A DNA stretch of 12,347 nt, from positions 1 to 12,347 of IMG/VR virus record IMGVR_UViG_2541047882_000003; one strand, written 5' to 3'. Position 1 is the first letter of the stretch. Each line of letters begins with the position of its first letter. This document shows, piece after piece, positions 1,391-10,714 of this stretch. The position numbers were made by a program, and so were the translations under genes. This DNA is from a virus (Duplodnaviria > Heunggongvirae > Uroviricota > Caudoviricetes). The notes beneath the pieces are model-generated. The model was not told the origin of the DNA. It saw only the letters and a list, made by a program, of their open reading frames with translations, and made no database searches.

Positions 1391-1465
1391 GCGGGTCCTC
1401 CTGGATGGGTACCCTTACCGCGGGGCGACGGACGCGCGGAAAAAGGCTGGTTTTTGCATTTTCAT
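1391..1465 (+). other. cos-like site A (cosQ-like CGGGTCCTCCTGG, cosN-like dyad CCGCG-N10-CGCGG at 1418-1439); orphan, no terS downstream
   Basis: Alignable to the phage lambda cosQ-cosN junction as I remember it (lambda ACGGGTCCTTTCCGG...GTTACGGGGCGGCGACCTCGCGGG). The 36-bp core CCTTACCGCGGGGCGACGGACGCGCGGAAAAAGGCT is identical to inverted copy C at 4085..4170. Confidence 0.5.
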
Positions 1466-1865
1466 GGCGGCGGCAGCATGTGTGGTAATATATTGATAAT
1501 TAAAAGTTATTTCTGTTTTCACCTGTACAATCTTTTTTCTCCCCTGTCATTAGACCAGTTCGCAATCAATTGAAATATATAAATAAATCTGATTTTCACC
1601 TGCCAGATGGAGTTGCCAGTGTCAAATGTGAGCGGAAGCGGTGATGCTTATCACTGAATCATGCCGCATCACGATACCAGACTCCCGGTACCGCTGCGTG
1701 ATAACCCACAAGGCTGGTGGCGATGCGTTATGGTCCGTGCATTGCCATTCTCCTGGCCTGGTGGCATTATCCGGCATGAACGAGCGGTTATTCTCCGTAC
1801 TCTTAATCGTTGTTCATGGTTATTTTCTTTGTGGTAGCTGACTTCTTGATGTCCTTATCCTCCTG

Positions 1866-4276: not shown

Positions 4277-4564
4277 TCACTGGTTACCGCCAGGCTGCTT
4301 CGGGTAGTTCCGCCAGACGGATTTACCCGCGTCTTCCATCCCCATCACCGCATGAGTGCGGTTTACAGCCTCTTTCAGTGCCCCGAAGTTATCCGCCATA
4401 ACGGGTGGGCGTGCTGCCCTGCGGATGCATTCCGCGCGACGCTTTGCCACCTGTTCGCGCTCCTTATCGGTGTTCACCAGCTGCATGACCTCAGCCCACC
4501 GCGCCGCCGCTCTCCGGTACAGGCCTTTAGCCTCCAGTTCTTCCGCTTTGCTGTCACGAATCAT
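4277..4564 (-). CDS. PerC-family-like small transcriptional regulator (paralog 2)
   Basis: 95 aa with DSKAEELEAKGLYRRAAARWAEV, matching the paralog at 1..372. Its start overlaps the stop of the upstream gene (ATGA at 4561-4564), indicating translational coupling. Confidence 0.6.
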   Translation of the reverse strand: MIRDSKAEELEAKGLYRRAAARWAEVMQLVNTDKEREQVAKRRAECIRRAARPPVMADNFGALKEAVNRTHAVMGMEDAGKSVWRNYPKQPGGNQ

Positions 4565-5097
4565 GCGCCTGTCTTCTCCTTTGTCGCCTGACGTTTGCGC
4601 TTTTCATTCAGTGCTGCCAGCCGCGTTTCTGCCTCCTGCTGTTCCTGTGGTGTCACTTCCCCACATGGCTGGCCTTTCAGGTCGTAACGTGTGCCACCAG
4701 CCATTAAGGCGCGGTAATAGCGCGGAGACTGCGCATAAGATGCCAGCGTCGCACGTAATGCCCCCGGCCCGAATGTCAGCCCCCTGGCGGCGATATCCTG
4801 TATCAGGTCGTCGAATATCCCCACCTTAAGCGGCTTCGGTGCTTTATGGCTGAATAAGTCAGGCCACATCTCAGTGAGGCGGTTAACGCGTCGGCGGTTT
4901 TTGCGCTGCCTTTTGGTCATATGCTGCCACGGTGTCGCCCCTGCGGTCTTCTGTTTGCGGCTCTGCTGTGCGTTCTGATTATCGGGTATCACTTTATGCG
5001 CCGATGTGGTTTTATCCTGCTCTTGTGCCGCCTGCGTCGTTTTCTGCGGCGTGCCGTAAATGCCTTTCGGTTTTCGGTTAATGGTCAGCTTTGTCAT
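4561..5097 (-). CDS. ProQ/FinO-domain RNA-binding protein
   Basis: 178 aa. PLKVGIFDDLI and LRATLASYAQSPRYYRALMAGGTRYDLKGQPCGEVTPQEQQEAE align closely with the E. coli ProQ N-terminal FinO-like domain (PLKIGIFQDLV...LRSALRLYTSSWRYL..GATRVDLDGNPCGEL) as I remember it. It is preceded by a basic, Q/K-rich N-terminus. Confidence 0.8.
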   Translation of the reverse strand: MTKLTINRKPKGIYGTPQKTTQAAQEQDKTTSAHKVIPDNQNAQQSRKQKTAGATPWQHMTKRQRKNRRRVNRLTEMWPDLFSHKAPKPLKVGIFDDLIQDIAARGLTFGPGALRATLASYAQSPRYYRALMAGGTRYDLKGQPCGEVTPQEQQEAETRLAALNEKRKRQATKEKTGA

Positions 5098-8598: not shown

Positions 8599-8832
8599 TT
8601 ATTTCCCGGTGTGTTGTTCTTTATATCTGTCGTGCAAAAGATCTATTTCTTGTAGTTCCATTATTACCGGCTCAAGAAGCGTTATTAACGCCGTCGCAAT
8701 ATTGCTGTTGCGTTTATCTCTTTCATTATCGCCAAGCGTTCCAAGCCATAAGCGCAATATTTCAAGCATGTTTTCACTGTAAGCAAGAGCACGGTATGCA
8801 CGGTCTACTGTGTCATTGTAAATATCACACAT
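8599..8832 (-). CDS. hypothetical protein (77 aa)
   Basis: ATG at 8832 with GGAGG 9 nt upstream; overlaps the upstream stop by 8 nt (ATGTGTGA). Confidence 0.55.
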   Translation of the reverse strand: MCDIYNDTVDRAYRALAYSENMLEILRLWLGTLGDNERDKRNSNIATALITLLEPVIMELQEIDLLHDRYKEQHTGK

Positions 8833-9070
8833 GGCTTACATCCTCCGGGAATTTTCTTCTGTAACGCGCCTCTGCCACATATTCCGCATAGTCCGACGCA
8901 ATATTGAGAATCTCCGCACCCTCTGACCTGTAGCCACTGGTATTGATAAGAAAAAATGCGGCTTTTATCATGTCAGCAACGCCCAACAATGCGTCTGCTT
9001 CGTGTTCCGGTGCGCCATCAAATTCCTGTTTCAGGGCATTAAAACGATCATCACGCATAACCCCCCCCAT
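8825..9070 (-). CDS. hypothetical protein (about 82 aa from the ATG at 9070; track shows an alternative TTG start at 9085)
   Basis: The first in-frame ATG is immediately followed by the G8 tract (ATGGGGGGGG on the coding strand). Overlaps the end of the upstream ORF in another frame. Confidence 0.5.
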   Translation of the reverse strand: MGGVMRDDRFNALKQEFDGAPEHEADALLGVADMIKAAFFLINTSGYRSEGAEILNIASDYAEYVAEARYRRKFPEDVSHV

Positions 9071-9290
9071 TTTCACAATCAGCAATCAGGATAGCCCTGG
9101 CCTCATTCAGTGCCATATCAGCACTAAATTGCATAACAGCCAGTGAGTGAGGAACGAAAGCCCCGGCATATTCTGTTTCGCTGGTGGCGTACTTATGCGC
9201 CTTGTCTGCGATAACAGAAATATCAATCAGCGCATCAATCAGTGTTTTTATAGCTTCGGCGGCTGCGTCCGGACGGGTGTTATTGCACAT
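9051..9290 (-). CDS. hypothetical protein (79 aa)
   Basis: ATG at 9290 with AGGAGG upstream; the start overlaps the stop of the 68-aa ORF (ATGTGCAATAA). Its C-terminus is encoded across the G8 tract. Confidence 0.55.
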   Translation of the reverse strand: MCNNTRPDAAAEAIKTLIDALIDISVIADKAHKYATSETEYAGAFVPHSLAVMQFSADMALNEARAILIADCENGGGYA

Positions 9291-9486
9291 GGCGTACCTC
9301 CTGACGAATACGGGCGGCGAATACCATCACGCAACCAGCCGGGGATTGCTGGCGTGCTTCCTGTTCGCTGGTGGCCTCGATGGTAATCACGCGCGGTTGT
9401 GCCGTGCTCAGGGCGATAAAACGCCAGATGTATTTATTCAGGTTGTGCGAGTCCCGCCCTTGCTGGTGTGTGGTATAATTTCTCAT
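9280..9486 (-). CDS. hypothetical protein (68 aa), first gene of the leftward replication operon
   Basis: ATG at 9486 with GAGGT 6 nt upstream. It is the in-frame C-terminal part of the spurious 371-aa track ORF. Its stop overlaps the next start. Confidence 0.5.
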   Translation of the reverse strand: MRNYTTHQQGRDSHNLNKYIWRFIALSTAQPRVITIEATSEQEARQQSPAGCVMVFAARIRQEVRHVQ

Positions 9487-9581
9487 AGCTACCTCGATAC
9501 TCTCGTTATCGTTGGTGGTTAGAGGCTGCGAAAGGACGGCAATCCTTTCCAGCCTCGTTTGCATTGAGTGATAGTTACTCA

Positions 9582-9664
9582 ACTGGATTCCAGTATAATC
9601 ACTAAGTGGAATCCACTTCAAGCATTTTGTTTTGGTCTTTTTCGTGTATACTGGATTCCAGTAA
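9582..9664. promoter_or_regulatory. divergent control region with three odd-length palindromes (candidate operators) overlapping -10-like hexamers
   Basis: ACTGGATTCCAGT at 9582-9594 and again at 9651-9663 (CTGGA-T-TCCAG), and GTGGAATCCAC at 9607-9617. TATAAT at 9593-9598 and TATACT at 9647-9652 on the plus strand. Lies between the minus-strand operon start (9486) and the plus-strand small gene (9683). Confidence 0.45.
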
Positions 9665-9682
9665 TCACAAAGGAAACCAGAA

Positions 9683-9862
9683 ATGGAAAGAGACCATATC
9701 AATAACAAATCACAGAAATTACAGGCTCGCGCCCCGCATGAAGTTGTTGAGGCAATGGAGCAAGTCAAAGAAACGGGCGAGAGTACTGCGCAGTTTATCG
9801 TTACAGCCATGCGTGGCGAGATCAAACGCCGCCAGCGCCGCAAGGCCAAAGAGCAGGAGTAA
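9683..9862 (+). CDS. small ribbon-helix-helix-like DNA-binding protein (59 aa); candidate repressor
   Basis: Not in the supplied track (below its length cutoff). ATG at 9683 with AGGAA 7-8 nt upstream; TAA at 9860-9862. The translation MERDHINNKSQKLQARAPHEVVEAMEQVKETGESTAQFIVTAMRGEIKRRQRRKAKEQE has a strand-helix-helix pattern typical of Arc/CopG-type proteins. Confidence 0.5.
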   Translation: MERDHINNKSQKLQARAPHEVVEAMEQVKETGESTAQFIVTAMRGEIKRRQRRKAKEQE

Positions 9863-9919: not shown

Positions 9920-10117
9920 ATGACTGACAAATCATTAAAGAAATTATCCTCATCCAGGAAAAAACAACGCAAAAACGCGGTAAGAGAACATGAACAGGAA
10001 AGATTCGCGCCATGTGCGTTTGTCCTTGAAAAGTTCCTTAAAGAGTACAGGCGCACAAAAATGGGATCGCATGCCTGGAAAACATCGCAGCATGGCGATA
10101 CTAAAGAGCAGGAATAG
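9920..10117 (+). CDS. hypothetical small basic protein (65 aa)
   Basis: ATG at 9920 with AGG 8 nt upstream; Lys/Arg-rich. Followed about 100 nt later by a plus-strand terminator. Confidence 0.4.
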   Translation: MTDKSLKKLSSSRKKQRKNAVREHEQERFAPCAFVLEKFLKEYRRTKMGSHAWKTSQHGDTKEQE

Positions 10118-10220
10118 CCCACCAGCAAGCCAGCACACTGATCACATTGCCCACCAGCCGCAAATGTGGCATTGTTGATTATGCTCATGCGTTGGCGATA
10201 ACGTGTAGCTTGTGTCGAAG

Positions 10221-10248
10221 GGCCACCGTAGCGGGTGGCCTTTGTTTT
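10221..10248 (+). terminator. rho-independent terminator for the plus-strand small genes
   Basis: GGCCACC (10221-10227) / GGTGGCC (10234-10240) stem followed by TTTGTTTT. Confidence 0.5.
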
Positions 10249-10399
10249 GCCTGTTATCCGGCAATTGTGGCGCTTCGCCACACGGTTGATATAATTCTCC
10301 TGCACTGATCCATTTTTTTCGCAGCAGGTTAATTGTTCGCAAGGGCGCTCCGGCAACGGGGCGCTTTTTGTTATGTTCATCGCGTTACGCCTCACACCA

Positions 10400-10606: not shown

Positions 10607-10677
10607 TATGTTTTACCTCGTTAATCCGGCGTATTCCGGTGATAAATACGGTAAAACAGGGCAGGGCGGGAAAAACA

Positions 10678-10714
10678 GTACCCACCGTTTTAAAACGGTA
10701 CCCACTGTTTTTTA
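10678..10714. promoter_or_regulatory. repeats upstream of alpA: 16-bp perfect palindrome ACCGTTTTAAAACGGT and direct repeats GTACCCAC(C/T)GTTTT
   Basis: Read directly in the alpA 5-prime region. Candidate operator/promoter elements. Confidence 0.35.

What the first reader, a model, noticed from the sequence alone, without database searches (positions are those of the whole stretch)
9487..9682. Divergent switch region with three near-identical odd-length palindromes
CTGGA-T-TCCAG at 9583-9593 and 9652-9662 and GTGGA-A-TCCAC at 9607-9617 overlap -10-like hexamers on the plus strand and sit between the leftward replication operon and the rightward RHH-like gene. This resembles a repressor/operator arrangement in which the small plus-strand protein may keep the replication operon silent until a helper signal arrives. 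A 14-15 bp imperfect hairpin (GAGGCTGCGAAAGGA...TCCTTTCCAGCCTC, 9522-9556) lies in the operon leader.
Basis: partly seen in the sequence, partly recalled or inferred. Interest (0 to 1): 0.55.

Follow-up and report, generated by a model that had tools for sequence, protein, structure and literature searches.

The report
Satellite repressor-operator switch with antisense RNA
The three short repeats are the binding sites of a small, previously uncharacterised repressor that most likely keeps the replication genes of an E. coli phage satellite switched off, and the neighbouring hairpin belongs to a predicted antisense RNA that adds a second lock.

Summary
The three 11-bp boxes are real: 9583-9593, 9606-9616 and 9651-9661. 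They are far beyond chance.

The window is a Gram-negative phage-inducible chromosomal island (PICI). The model island EcCICFT073 carries the same module.

In all 97 related loci the boxes sit at fixed offsets from the start of the 59-aa gene. The conserved form is (G/C)TG-N5-CAC, so palindromy is incidental. The 5-bp core differs between elements (about 19 types) but matches among the boxes of one element.

The core tracks only the N-terminal part of the adjacent YlcI/YnfO-family protein, never AlpA, Icd or the replication protein. That protein models as ribbon-helix-helix.

The boxes interleave with conserved promoter hexamers: a leftward promoter for the icd-like/replication operon and a rightward promoter for the repressor gene. 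This is a compact, exchangeable specificity cassette.

The hairpin at 9522-9556 folds on the plus strand. It is the terminator of a predicted RNA of about 80 nt, antisense to the icd-like start region. No paper or Rfam family found describes either element.

All of this rests on comparative sequence evidence. Binding, promoter activity and the RNA are untested.

The parts
9583..9593 (.). Box 1 (O1), CTGGATTCCAG. It overlaps the -10 and start region of the leftward promoter.
   Evidence: Found 22-36 bp upstream of box 2 in all related loci, in direct or inverted orientation.
9606..9616 (.). Box 2 (O2), GTGGAATCCAC. It lies in the spacer of the leftward promoter, abutting its -35.
   Evidence: It starts 77 nt before the YlcI-like ATG in nearly all loci. 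TCAA follows it in 64-66 of 66 distinct regions.
9651..9661 (.). Box 3 (O3), CTGGATTCCAG. It overlaps the -10 and start region of the rightward promoter.
   Evidence: It starts 32 nt before the ATG and 45 bp from box 2 in 62 of 65 regions. It is often the most deviant copy.
9592..9621 (-). Predicted leftward promoter P_L for the icd-like/replication operon: -35 TTGAAG 9621-9616, 18-nt spacer, -10 TATACT 9597-9592.
   Evidence: for the scan; for conservation of both hexamers across 42-66 distinct regions.
9647..9652 (+). Predicted -10 (TATACT) of the rightward promoter P_R for the YlcI-like gene.
   Evidence: GTATACTG is conserved in 64-68 of 68 distinct regions. No good -35 is present.
9683..9862 (+). 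59-aa YlcI/YnfO-family protein, the predicted ribbon-helix-helix repressor. Codons 1-48 form the variable, specificity-bearing part.
9522..9826 (.). Exchangeable specificity cassette: hairpin 2, the three boxes, both promoters and the first 48 codons of the repressor gene. Near-identical DNA flanks it in elements of other types.
   Evidence: Four-element alignment. In one search, many E. coli matches end at base 127 of the query (window 9526), and other matches split into two pieces.
9471..9479 (+). Predicted extended -10 (TGgTATAAT) of an antisense promoter, inside codons 3-6 of the icd-like gene.
   Evidence: The T, A and T at hexamer positions 1, 2 and 6 are present in 42, 41 and 42 of 42 diverse sequences, while the inner bases vary. 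The distance to the start codon varies from 4 to 10 nt, so the reading frame differs.
9486..9566 (+). Predicted cis-antisense RNA of about 80 nt. Hairpin 1 (9486-9521) covers the icd-like start codon and Shine-Dalgarno sequence. Hairpin 2 (9522-9556) plus a U-rich tail forms the terminator.
9280..9486 (-). Icd-like gene, first gene of the leftward operon. It is the predicted target of both controls.
   Evidence: NCBIfam NF033153 at 69.8 bits; annotation.
9564..9582 (.). Inverted repeat TTGAGTGATAGTTACTCAA at the predicted 5' end of the P_L transcript.
   Evidence: An inverted repeat of differing sequence occupies the same place in other loci. Its function was not resolved.
9920..10117 (+). 65-aa ORF downstream of the repressor gene, probably co-transcribed with it. 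A plus-strand terminator follows at 10218-10243.
   Evidence: phrog_21027, unknown function. Absent from EcCICFT073.

Best explanation
The region is the control switch of a Gram-negative PICI-type phage satellite.

The 59-aa YlcI/YnfO-family protein is a ribbon-helix-helix repressor. One dimer probably binds each 11-bp box of the form (G/C)TG-N5-CAC. Invariant Arg16 probably reads the constant outer GTG/CAC. Variable strand residues 12 and 14, with neighbours, probably read the element-specific 5-bp core.

Boxes 2 and 1 occupy the spacer and the -10/start region of the leftward promoter. Their occupancy would shut off the icd-like gene and, behind it, the DUF4222/primase replication operon. 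Box 3 sits on the -10 of the repressor's own promoter and is often the weakest copy. It would give negative autoregulation at high repressor levels.

The repressor's N-terminal part, its boxes and both promoters travel together as one exchangeable cassette. This defines specificity types, like heteroimmune phages.

A second layer is a constitutive antisense RNA of about 80 nt, made from a -10 element inside the first icd codons. It is fully complementary to the icd start codon and ribosome-binding site and ends at the 9522-9556 hairpin. It would block icd translation and, through polarity, lower expression of the genes behind it.

What is shown: the sites, their conservation, the co-variation, the fold resemblance and the strand of the RNA structure. 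What is inferred: binding, repression, promoter activity, existence of the RNA, and how the helper overcomes the block. The most likely route for the last is AlpA-driven leftward transcription that converges on the repressor gene and reads into the operon.
For: Context: the element carries int, alpA, the YlcI-like gene, icd-like, DUF4222, a DUF927 primase, ssb, ProQ/FinO, PerC and DUF1441, next to tRNA-Pro. EcCICFT073 carries the same module.

Box positions: in 85 loci the boxes start 32, 77 and about 100 nt (97-113) before the ATG. The 12 loci my pattern missed follow the same rule. The box 2 to box 3 spacing is 45 bp in 62 of 65 distinct regions.

Concerted change: the cores of all three boxes switch together between elements, while the interleaved hexamers stay constant. 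These are TCAA after box 2, TATA after box 1 and GTATA before box 3.

Specificity: among pairs of loci whose YlcI-like N-terminal 48 aa are at least 90% identical, 271 share the core and 0 differ. For Icd the counts are 66 and 85; for AlpA, 52 and 37. Replication-protein clusters are also shuffled across core types.

Cassette: the four-element alignment has identical flanks and a variable middle. Two elements in one Tenebrionibacter genome carry different types.

Slot replacement: a related island at the same tRNA-Pro site has, in the same slot, an unrelated small protein with an RHH-like pattern and its own palindromes.

RNA: the plus-strand consensus structure scores -27.8 kcal/mol against -8.0 for the minus strand. 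There are 145 G.U cells against 4 A.C cells, 13 of 22 pairs show compensatory changes, and the plus strand is more stable in 42 of 42 sequences. A T-rich tail follows hairpin 2 in most loci. A covariance model finds one plus-strand hit in every island locus tested, including 15 not used to build it, two in L096, and none in the K-12 ylcI locus.
Against: There is no experimental evidence of binding, promoter use or the RNA.

The repressor gene is the closest neighbour of the boxes, so part of the co-variation could reflect linkage. However, icd starts about as far from box 1 as the strand codons lie from box 3, and icd has been separated from the boxes many times.

The RHH assignment is modest. 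No Pfam RHH family passes threshold; the best weak hit is PSK_trans_fac at E 0.0096-0.027. Foldseek and a PDB sequence search found nothing. The monomer model shows short helices instead of a strand at residues 8-16.

The same strand sequence KVQARAP goes with several related cores (GATTC, GCATC, GAGTC), so residues outside the strand must also contribute.

P_R has no recognisable -35. In this window the U-tract after hairpin 2 is weak (GUUUGCAUU), and hairpin 2 on its own is slightly more stable on the minus strand (-22.8 against -21.6 kcal/mol).

Overexpressed AlpA alone induces EcCICFT073 (PMC6092414). Any repression must therefore be one that AlpA can override.
Confidence: 0.72

Rival explanations
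1. The boxes are bound by the YlcI-like protein, but it acts mainly as an activator or as a λ CI-like dual regulator, for example switching on its own weak promoter from boxes 1 and 2. Silencing of the operon would then depend mostly on the antisense RNA and on the absence of AlpA.
For: From the predicted P_R start, boxes 2 and 1 are centred near -48 and -71, which are typical activator positions. P_R lacks a -35. Box 3 is often degenerate, like a weak autoregulatory site.
Against: Boxes 1 and 2 lie on the -10/start region and inside the spacer of P_L in every locus. A bound protein there would normally exclude RNA polymerase. Activating P_R and repressing P_L are not mutually exclusive.
Confidence: 0.12
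2. The boxes are read by another protein of the island: AlpA, the Icd-like protein (labelled 'transcriptional repressor' in PHROGs), or the primase/replication protein, in which case they would be origin iterons.
For: AlpA is the known activator of island genes (PMC6092414). phrog_6196 and phrog_1743 label Icd-like proteins as repressors. Short repeats near replication genes can be iterons.
Against: Alleles of all three proteins are shuffled relative to the box core. Of pairs with at least 90% identical Icd, 85 have different cores, and of such AlpA pairs, 37 do. One replication-protein cluster occurs with six core types. The boxes occur nowhere else in the window.
Confidence: 0.04
3. The boxes are targets of a helper-phage or host protein, and the YlcI-like gene is an unrelated passenger.
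For: Induction of these islands depends on a helper phage (PMC6092414). The YlcI/YnfO family also occurs in lambdoid prophages such as DLP12.
Against: About 19 core types are exchanged as a unit with the adjacent gene's N-terminal part. A host or helper factor could not follow that diversity. tblastn found no close homologue in 50,697 phage records. The K-12 ylcI upstream region has no such boxes.
Confidence: 0.04
4. The 9522-9556 hairpin works in the leftward mRNA leader, for example as a stabilising or regulatory stem. No antisense RNA exists.
For: In this window the minus-strand hairpin is as stable as the plus-strand one (-22.8 against -21.6 kcal/mol), and the minus-strand leader still folds well (z -4.9). 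The plus-strand U-tract is weak here.
Against: Across 42 diverse sequences the structure is kept on the plus strand through 145 G.U pairs, which would be C.A mismatches on the minus strand. The consensus energies are -27.8 against -8.0 kcal/mol. A -10 with the invariant T, A, T pattern sits at the correct distance upstream. T-rich tails follow the stem in most loci.
Confidence: 0.15

Closest known systems
Phage P22 immunity I region (Mnt and Arc ribbon-helix-helix repressors, Pant/Pmnt, sar antisense RNA)
   Same: A small RHH repressor gene is transcribed divergently from the operon it controls. Its operators lie on overlapping back-to-back promoters, and a short cis-antisense RNA acts on the first gene's start region. 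PMC2629481 describes the parts; the operator details are from my own knowledge.
   Different: The regulated operon here starts with an icd-like gene followed by satellite replication genes, not an antirepressor. There are three 11-bp boxes with an asymmetric variable core instead of one symmetric operator per repressor. The protein matches no Pfam RHH family at threshold, Arc included. The RNA has no Rfam match.
Phage P1/P7 immI (c4 RNA - icd - ant)
   Same: An Icd-family gene heads the operon, and an RNA is predicted to block its translation and so the genes behind it. The Icd-like match is; the P1 mechanism is from my own knowledge.
   Different: c4 lies on the same strand as its target and acts in trans on short target sites. 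Here the RNA is fully complementary cis-antisense. The Rfam C4 and isrK models do not hit. A protein repressor is present in addition.
Lambdoid immunity regions (cI/cro with OR1-3)
   Same: Three related operator copies are shared between two divergent promoters. The copy on the repressor's own promoter is the most deviant. The repressor plus its operators are exchanged as a mosaic cassette that sets specificity.
   Different: The protein is RHH, not helix-turn-helix. There is no second Cro-like protein in the slot. The element is a satellite with no lytic genes of its own.
Omega repressor of inc18 plasmids (RHH binding heptad repeats)
   Different: The boxes are 11 bp with constant outer GTG/CAC, spaced 22-45 bp apart, not contiguous heptads.
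Stl/Rpr master repressors of Gram-positive PICIs
   Same: The repressor gene is divergent from the replication module of a phage satellite (PMC6092414).
   Different: There is no sequence or fold relation. Stl is relieved by binding a helper protein. Here the known helper-dependent step is AlpA expression, and a repressor has not been reported for Gram-negative islands.
P4 CI RNA / seqA immunity, reported for some Gram-negative PICIs
   Same: It is an RNA-based control placed ahead of the satellite's replication genes (PMC10111431).
   Different: CI acts on the same strand through transcription termination. No C4 or isrK hit exists here. The RNA predicted here is antisense to a translation start.

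Membership tests
YlcI/YnfO family (NCBIfam NF041551) | Score above the curated cut-off of the family model | tested here: met
   72.3 bits against a cut-off of 30, residues 9-50. Also phrog_949, E 2.6e-27.
Ribbon-helix-helix (Arc/MetJ-type) repressors | Strand-helix-helix fold | tested here: inconclusive
Ribbon-helix-helix (Arc/MetJ-type) repressors | Significant sequence match to a curated RHH family | tested here: not met
   No Pfam family at E 0.01 or better. Only weak PSK_trans_fac (7 of 37 members, best E 0.0096) and HicB (1 member) hits. hhalign to Arc is in register but weak (P 0.0013).
Ribbon-helix-helix (Arc/MetJ-type) repressors | Dimer that inserts a two-stranded sheet into the major groove of repeated subsites | not testable with these tools
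Indirect support: variable residues 12 and 14 and invariant R16 align with the base-contacting Arc residues (the Arc contacts are from my own knowledge).
Ribbon-helix-helix (Arc/MetJ-type) repressors | Repeated operator subsites overlapping the regulated promoter | tested here: met
   Three boxes lie on the -10/start region, the spacer and the -10 of two predicted promoters, conserved in 97 loci.
Gram-negative PICI (AlpA type) | Gene set int, alpA, primase/replication module and packaging module, about 10-15 kb, inserted at a specific site | tested here: met
   int, AlpA (PF05930), DUF927 primase, ssb, DUF1441 and cos-like segments next to tRNA-Pro/yejM. The module shows 75% DNA identity to EcCICFT073.
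Gram-negative PICI (AlpA type) | Induction and packaging by a helper phage | not testable with these tools
   Shown experimentally only for EcCICFT073 and relatives (PMC6092414).
P1-type immI (c4-icd-ant) | C4-family RNA upstream of icd | tested here: not met
   No Rfam hit with E of 1 or better in 9400-9700.
P1-type immI (c4-icd-ant) | Icd-family first gene | tested here: met
   NF033153 at 69.8 bits against a cut-off of 25.
Intrinsic terminator (for hairpin 9522-9556, plus strand) | G+C-rich stem directly followed by a U-run | tested here: inconclusive
   The stem is good (-21.6 kcal/mol). The tail in this window, GTTTGCATT, has 5 T in 9, so the scan did not call it. Most related loci have 5-7 T in 9.
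cis-antisense regulatory RNA | Own promoter, conserved structure on the antisense strand, overlap with the target's translation start | tested here: met
   A -10 with T, A, T in 42, 41 and 42 of 42 sequences. Plus-strand structure with 13 compensatory pairs and a 145 to 4 G.U to A.C asymmetry. It covers the icd ATG and Shine-Dalgarno sequence. Expression itself is untested.

The most novel reading that the evidence does not exclude
The YlcI/YnfO-type protein is the missing master repressor of AlpA-type Gram-negative PICIs. Together with its three boxes it forms a hypervariable immunity cassette of about 19 or more types. The cassette lets several islands share one cell without cross-repression and sets which island responds to what. 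A new family of cis-antisense RNA adds a translational lock on the icd-led replication operon. Helper induction would work through AlpA-driven convergent transcription that runs over the repressor gene and both locks.
Probability: 0.4. Interest if true: 0.8.

Novelty: new variant of a known kind. Interest (0 to 1): 0.66.

Why it matters
Gram-negative PICIs are in roughly a quarter of complete E. coli genomes: this module matched 1,353-1,440 of 5,426. They move virulence and defence genes.

The founding paper states that it is unclear whether they have a global repressor, and identifies only the activator AlpA (PMC6092414). Later genomic work places 'immunity' in Bro-zone RNAs (PMC10111431).

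A conserved repressor-operator cassette and an antisense RNA directly ahead of the replication operon are also present in the model island EcCICFT073. Together they give a concrete, testable answer to how these islands stay silent.

The work also assigns a function to the uncharacterised YlcI/YnfO (DUF3950) family. It further provides a natural series of matched protein-strand and DNA-core pairs that could be used to study, or engineer, RHH recognition and orthogonal switches.

Tried and rejected
- Rfam on the whole window at E up to 1 gave only a spurious eukaryotic scaRNA hit elsewhere.
- Megablast and blastn of the window or the region against 50,697 phage records gave only cos-related hits and one weak icd hit. 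P4 and P1 do not share this DNA.
- tblastn of the 59-aa protein against phages found no match.
- A PDB sequence search with the family profile and Foldseek with the model both found nothing useful.
- Pfam on the small proteins hit only AlpA, DUF4222 and DUF927.
It was repeated with database proteins.
- AlpA, Icd-like and the replication protein were rejected as readers of the boxes, by allele shuffling.
- The idea that a helper-phage YlcI/YnfO homologue poisons the repressor was not pursued. A partial E. coli hit that looked like a prophage copy turned out to be another island. The K-12 DLP12 ylcI locus has neither the boxes nor the RNA.
- The plus-strand TATAAT at 9594-9599 was rejected as a conserved promoter. 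Only its minus-strand mirror is conserved across loci.
- Literature searches for YlcI, YnfO, DUF3950, EcCICFT073, PICI with ribbon-helix-helix, and satellite with Icd and antisense RNA found no description of this switch.

Full report
**What the window is**

The region matches 1,440 of 5,426 complete E. coli genomes. In the closest one it lies in a 12-kb island between yejO and tRNA-Pro/yejM. The island carries an integrase, a small hypothetical gene, an AlpA-type HTH gene, and a plus-strand YlcI/YnfO-family gene with a second small gene. A leftward operon follows: an Icd-like gene, small ORFs, DUF4222, a DUF927 primase, ssb, ProQ/FinO, PerC and DUF1441.

Family scans agree. Two segments resemble lambdoid cos/terminase regions. 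This is the organisation of a Gram-negative phage-inducible chromosomal island (PICI). The model island EcCICFT073 carries the same divergent module at 75% DNA identity.

**The observation**

The boxes are CTGGATTCCAG at 9583-9593 and 9651-9661, and GTGGAATCCAC at 9606-9616. TGGAWTCCA occurs three times in the window, against 0.15 expected, and 0 of 200 shuffles reached three.

A consensus scan finds a leftward promoter: -35 TTGAAG at 9621-9616, an 18-nt spacer and -10 TATACT at 9597-9592. Box 2 therefore fills the spacer next to the -35, and box 1 covers the end of the -10 and the start site. Box 3 overlaps a plus-strand TATACT (9647-9652), 31 nt before the ATG of the 59-aa gene.

**Comparative anatomy**

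I collected 15 loci from other Enterobacterales, 80 from IMG/VR and seven further E. coli loci.

- In 85 loci that a simple pattern could parse, boxes start 32, 77 and about 100 nt (97-113) before the ATG. The 12 loci the pattern missed follow the same rule.
- The box 2 to box 3 spacing is 45 bp in 62 of 65 distinct regions. The box 1 to box 2 spacing is 22/23 bp (42 regions), 25/26 bp (7) or 35/36 bp (17).
- The conserved form is (G/C)TG-N5-CAC. The 5-bp core is specific to each element, with about 19 types. Examples are GATTC/GAATC here, TGGCC in EcCICFT073, then AATCG, AAATA, GCACC, AACAC, TCTTA, TCAGC and TTGAA.
- The core is usually not palindromic. Box 1 is inverted relative to boxes 2 and 3 in some types. 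The perfect dyads in this window are a property of its type, not of the family.
- Between the variable cores the promoter hexamers are constant. TCAA follows box 2 in 64-66 of 66 regions; this is the start of the -35 on the other strand. TATA follows box 1 in the 22/23-bp class. GTATA precedes box 3 in 63-67 of 68 regions.
- All three boxes of an element have switched to a new core while the promoters around them stayed the same. That requires a common, element-specific reader.

**Who reads the boxes**

The strand-like segment of the YlcI-like protein (residues 9-18, K-S-Q-x-x-x-x-R-x-P) maps almost one-to-one onto the core:

| Strand segment | Box core |
|---|---|
| KLQARAP | GATTC |
| ALKARVP | TGGCC |
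| KMSARVP | GCACC |
| QLNARFP | AATCG |
| MTTVRIP | AAATA |
| LTTVRVP | AAACA |
| SVTARIA | TCTTA |
| KLEARVP | TCAGC |
| TIAARVP | TTGAA |

- Among non-redundant locus pairs whose N-terminal 48 aa are at least 90% identical, 271 share the core and none differ.
- For Icd the counts are 66 and 85. For AlpA they are 52 and 37.
- Replication-protein clusters are likewise mixed across types.
- An alignment of four E. coli islands shows near-identical DNA up to GGTTAGA before hairpin 2. A variable block follows, running through the boxes and the first 48 codons. The sequence is near-identical again in the C-terminal codons.
- The unit of exchange is therefore operator plus the reading part of the protein, as in heteroimmune lambdoid phages.
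- Two islands in one Tenebrionibacter genome carry different types.

**What kind of protein**

There is no Pfam hit. The protein matches NCBIfam YlcI_YnfO_N at 72 bits. An AF2 model built on 37 homologues reaches pLDDT 84, with two helices after a less confident N-terminal segment.

R16 is invariant, and positions 12-15 and 17 are the variable ones. A related island at the same tRNA-Pro site has, in the same slot, an unrelated small protein with an RHH-like pattern and its own TGTAATTACA palindromes. That fits a slot reserved for a repressor and its operators.

**The hairpin**

Folding the leader region in 69 distinct contexts showed that the 9522-9556 stem is more stable on the plus strand in 64 of them. 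An alignment of 42 diverse sequences gives two hairpins with 22 pairs, 13 of them with compensatory changes.

| Measure | Plus strand | Minus strand |
|---|---|---|
| Cells that pair | 97.3% | 82.0% |
| Consensus energy | -27.8 kcal/mol | -8.0 kcal/mol |
| Mean per-sequence energy | -35.3 kcal/mol | -23.8 kcal/mol |

- There are 145 G.U cells on the plus strand against 4 A.C cells.
- The plus strand is the more stable one in all 42 sequences.
- The second hairpin is followed by a T-rich tail in most loci.
- Seven to nine bases before the first hairpin lies a hexamer whose first, second and last positions are T, A and T in 42, 41 and 42 of 42 sequences, while the inner bases vary. A G sits two bases upstream in 39.
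- The hexamer's distance to the icd start codon differs between lineages, so the pattern is not a codon constraint.
- In the window this element is TGgTATAAT at 9471-9479.

The predicted product is an RNA of about 80 nt (about 9486-9566; -36.3 kcal/mol, z -6.1). It is fully complementary to the icd-like start codon and Shine-Dalgarno sequence. A covariance model finds one plus-strand copy in every island locus tested, including 15 not used to build it and the island with the different repressor. It finds two copies in L096 and none in the K-12 ylcI locus. Rfam has no matching family.

**How it most likely works**

*Shown:* site positions, concerted core changes, exclusive co-variation with the YlcI-like protein, the cassette structure, the RHH-like fold, and the plus-strand RNA structure with a -10 and a terminator-like end.

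*Inferred:*
- Repressor dimers on boxes 2 and 1 block the leftward promoter. Box 3 autoregulates the repressor promoter.
- The antisense RNA blocks icd translation and, through polarity, the replication genes behind it.
- On induction, AlpA, the helper-dependent activator that by itself induces EcCICFT073 (PMC6092414), drives leftward transcription.
- The two strong terminators between alpA and the repressor gene have T-runs only on the plus strand. That transcription could therefore converge on the repressor gene and read into the operon.
- In other islands a Bro or AntA/AntB gene lies behind alpA. An antirepressor route is therefore also possible.

**Comparison and novelty**

The nearest known design is the P22 immunity I region, with RHH repressors, divergent promoters and the sar antisense RNA (PMC2629481). 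There are echoes of P1 c4-icd-ant and of lambdoid OR. It is not a member of those families by sequence.

None of the papers found connects YlcI/YnfO with island regulation. The founding paper says a global repressor in Gram-negative islands is unclear. I therefore rate this a new variant of a known kind, with good practical interest. All functional statements await experiments.

Noticed in passing
window 8825-9290 (-): The gene after the icd-like gene is split into two ORFs (9051-9290 and 8825-9085). Together they cover one 154-aa phrog_2512 protein that is intact in strain VTB97432v (L001 10547-11011). This is a frameshift or a sequencing error in the window.
   Followed up: partly
window 10286-10373 (+): A TTGATATAAT promoter-like element (-10 at 10290-10295) lies about 45 nt before a strong plus-strand terminator (10341-10368 plus a T-run). 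The pair sits in the 280-bp non-coding gap between the 65-aa ORF and alpA. It could encode a second small RNA of about 70 nt, convergent with alpA.
   Followed up: no
window 10676-10707: Upstream of alpA, two direct GTACCCAC repeats (10678-10685 and 10698-10705) flank the perfect palindrome ACCGTTTTAAAACGGT (10684-10699). These are candidate sites for AlpA autoactivation.
   Followed up: no
window 1392-1656 and 2426-2661: Two separate segments resemble the cos/small-terminase ends of different lambdoid phages: about 90% identity to the cdtI/Tritos type and about 76-82% to the phage 21 type. The island may be packageable by more than one helper type.
   Followed up: no
L039 about 2945-2980 (IMG/VR contig): A deletion variant in which boxes start only 55 and 32 nt before the ATG. 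Box 2 and the leftward -35 are missing, as if box 1 and box 2 had recombined.
   Followed up: no
L101 3594-3872 (E. coli STEC308, same tRNA-Pro site): The cassette is replaced by a different 59-aa protein with an RHH-like pattern (PPFQFRLDPDLREKM...) and by repeats built on GTGTAATTACAC. The antisense-RNA motif is kept.
   Followed up: partly
L096 2765-2868 and 3511-3615: This locus has two copies of the antisense-RNA motif about 750 bp apart, both on the plus strand.
   Followed up: no
window 9564-9582: The inverted repeat TTGAGTGATAGTTACTCAA lies at the predicted 5' end of the leftward transcript. Other loci have an inverted repeat of different sequence in the same place, often including the first bases of box 1. 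It could be a 5' stabilising stem or an extension of the operator.
   Followed up: partly
L103 4252-4834 (E. coli K-12 DLP12): K-12 ylcI is divergent from nohD across the cos region. Its protein also has an RHH-like pattern (RNIRFPNQMIEQINIALEQKGSGNFSAWVIEA), but the upstream DNA has neither the boxes nor the RNA motif.
   Followed up: partly
window 4561-5097 (-): The island encodes a ProQ/FinO-family protein. FinO-type proteins chaperone antisense RNAs that end in terminator hairpins, so it might act on the predicted RNA.
   Followed up: no
L100 3285-3590: Some islands carry a 101-aa version of the YlcI-like protein with a C-terminal extension (phrog_6522 type). Its boxes have the core AAACA.
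   Followed up: partly
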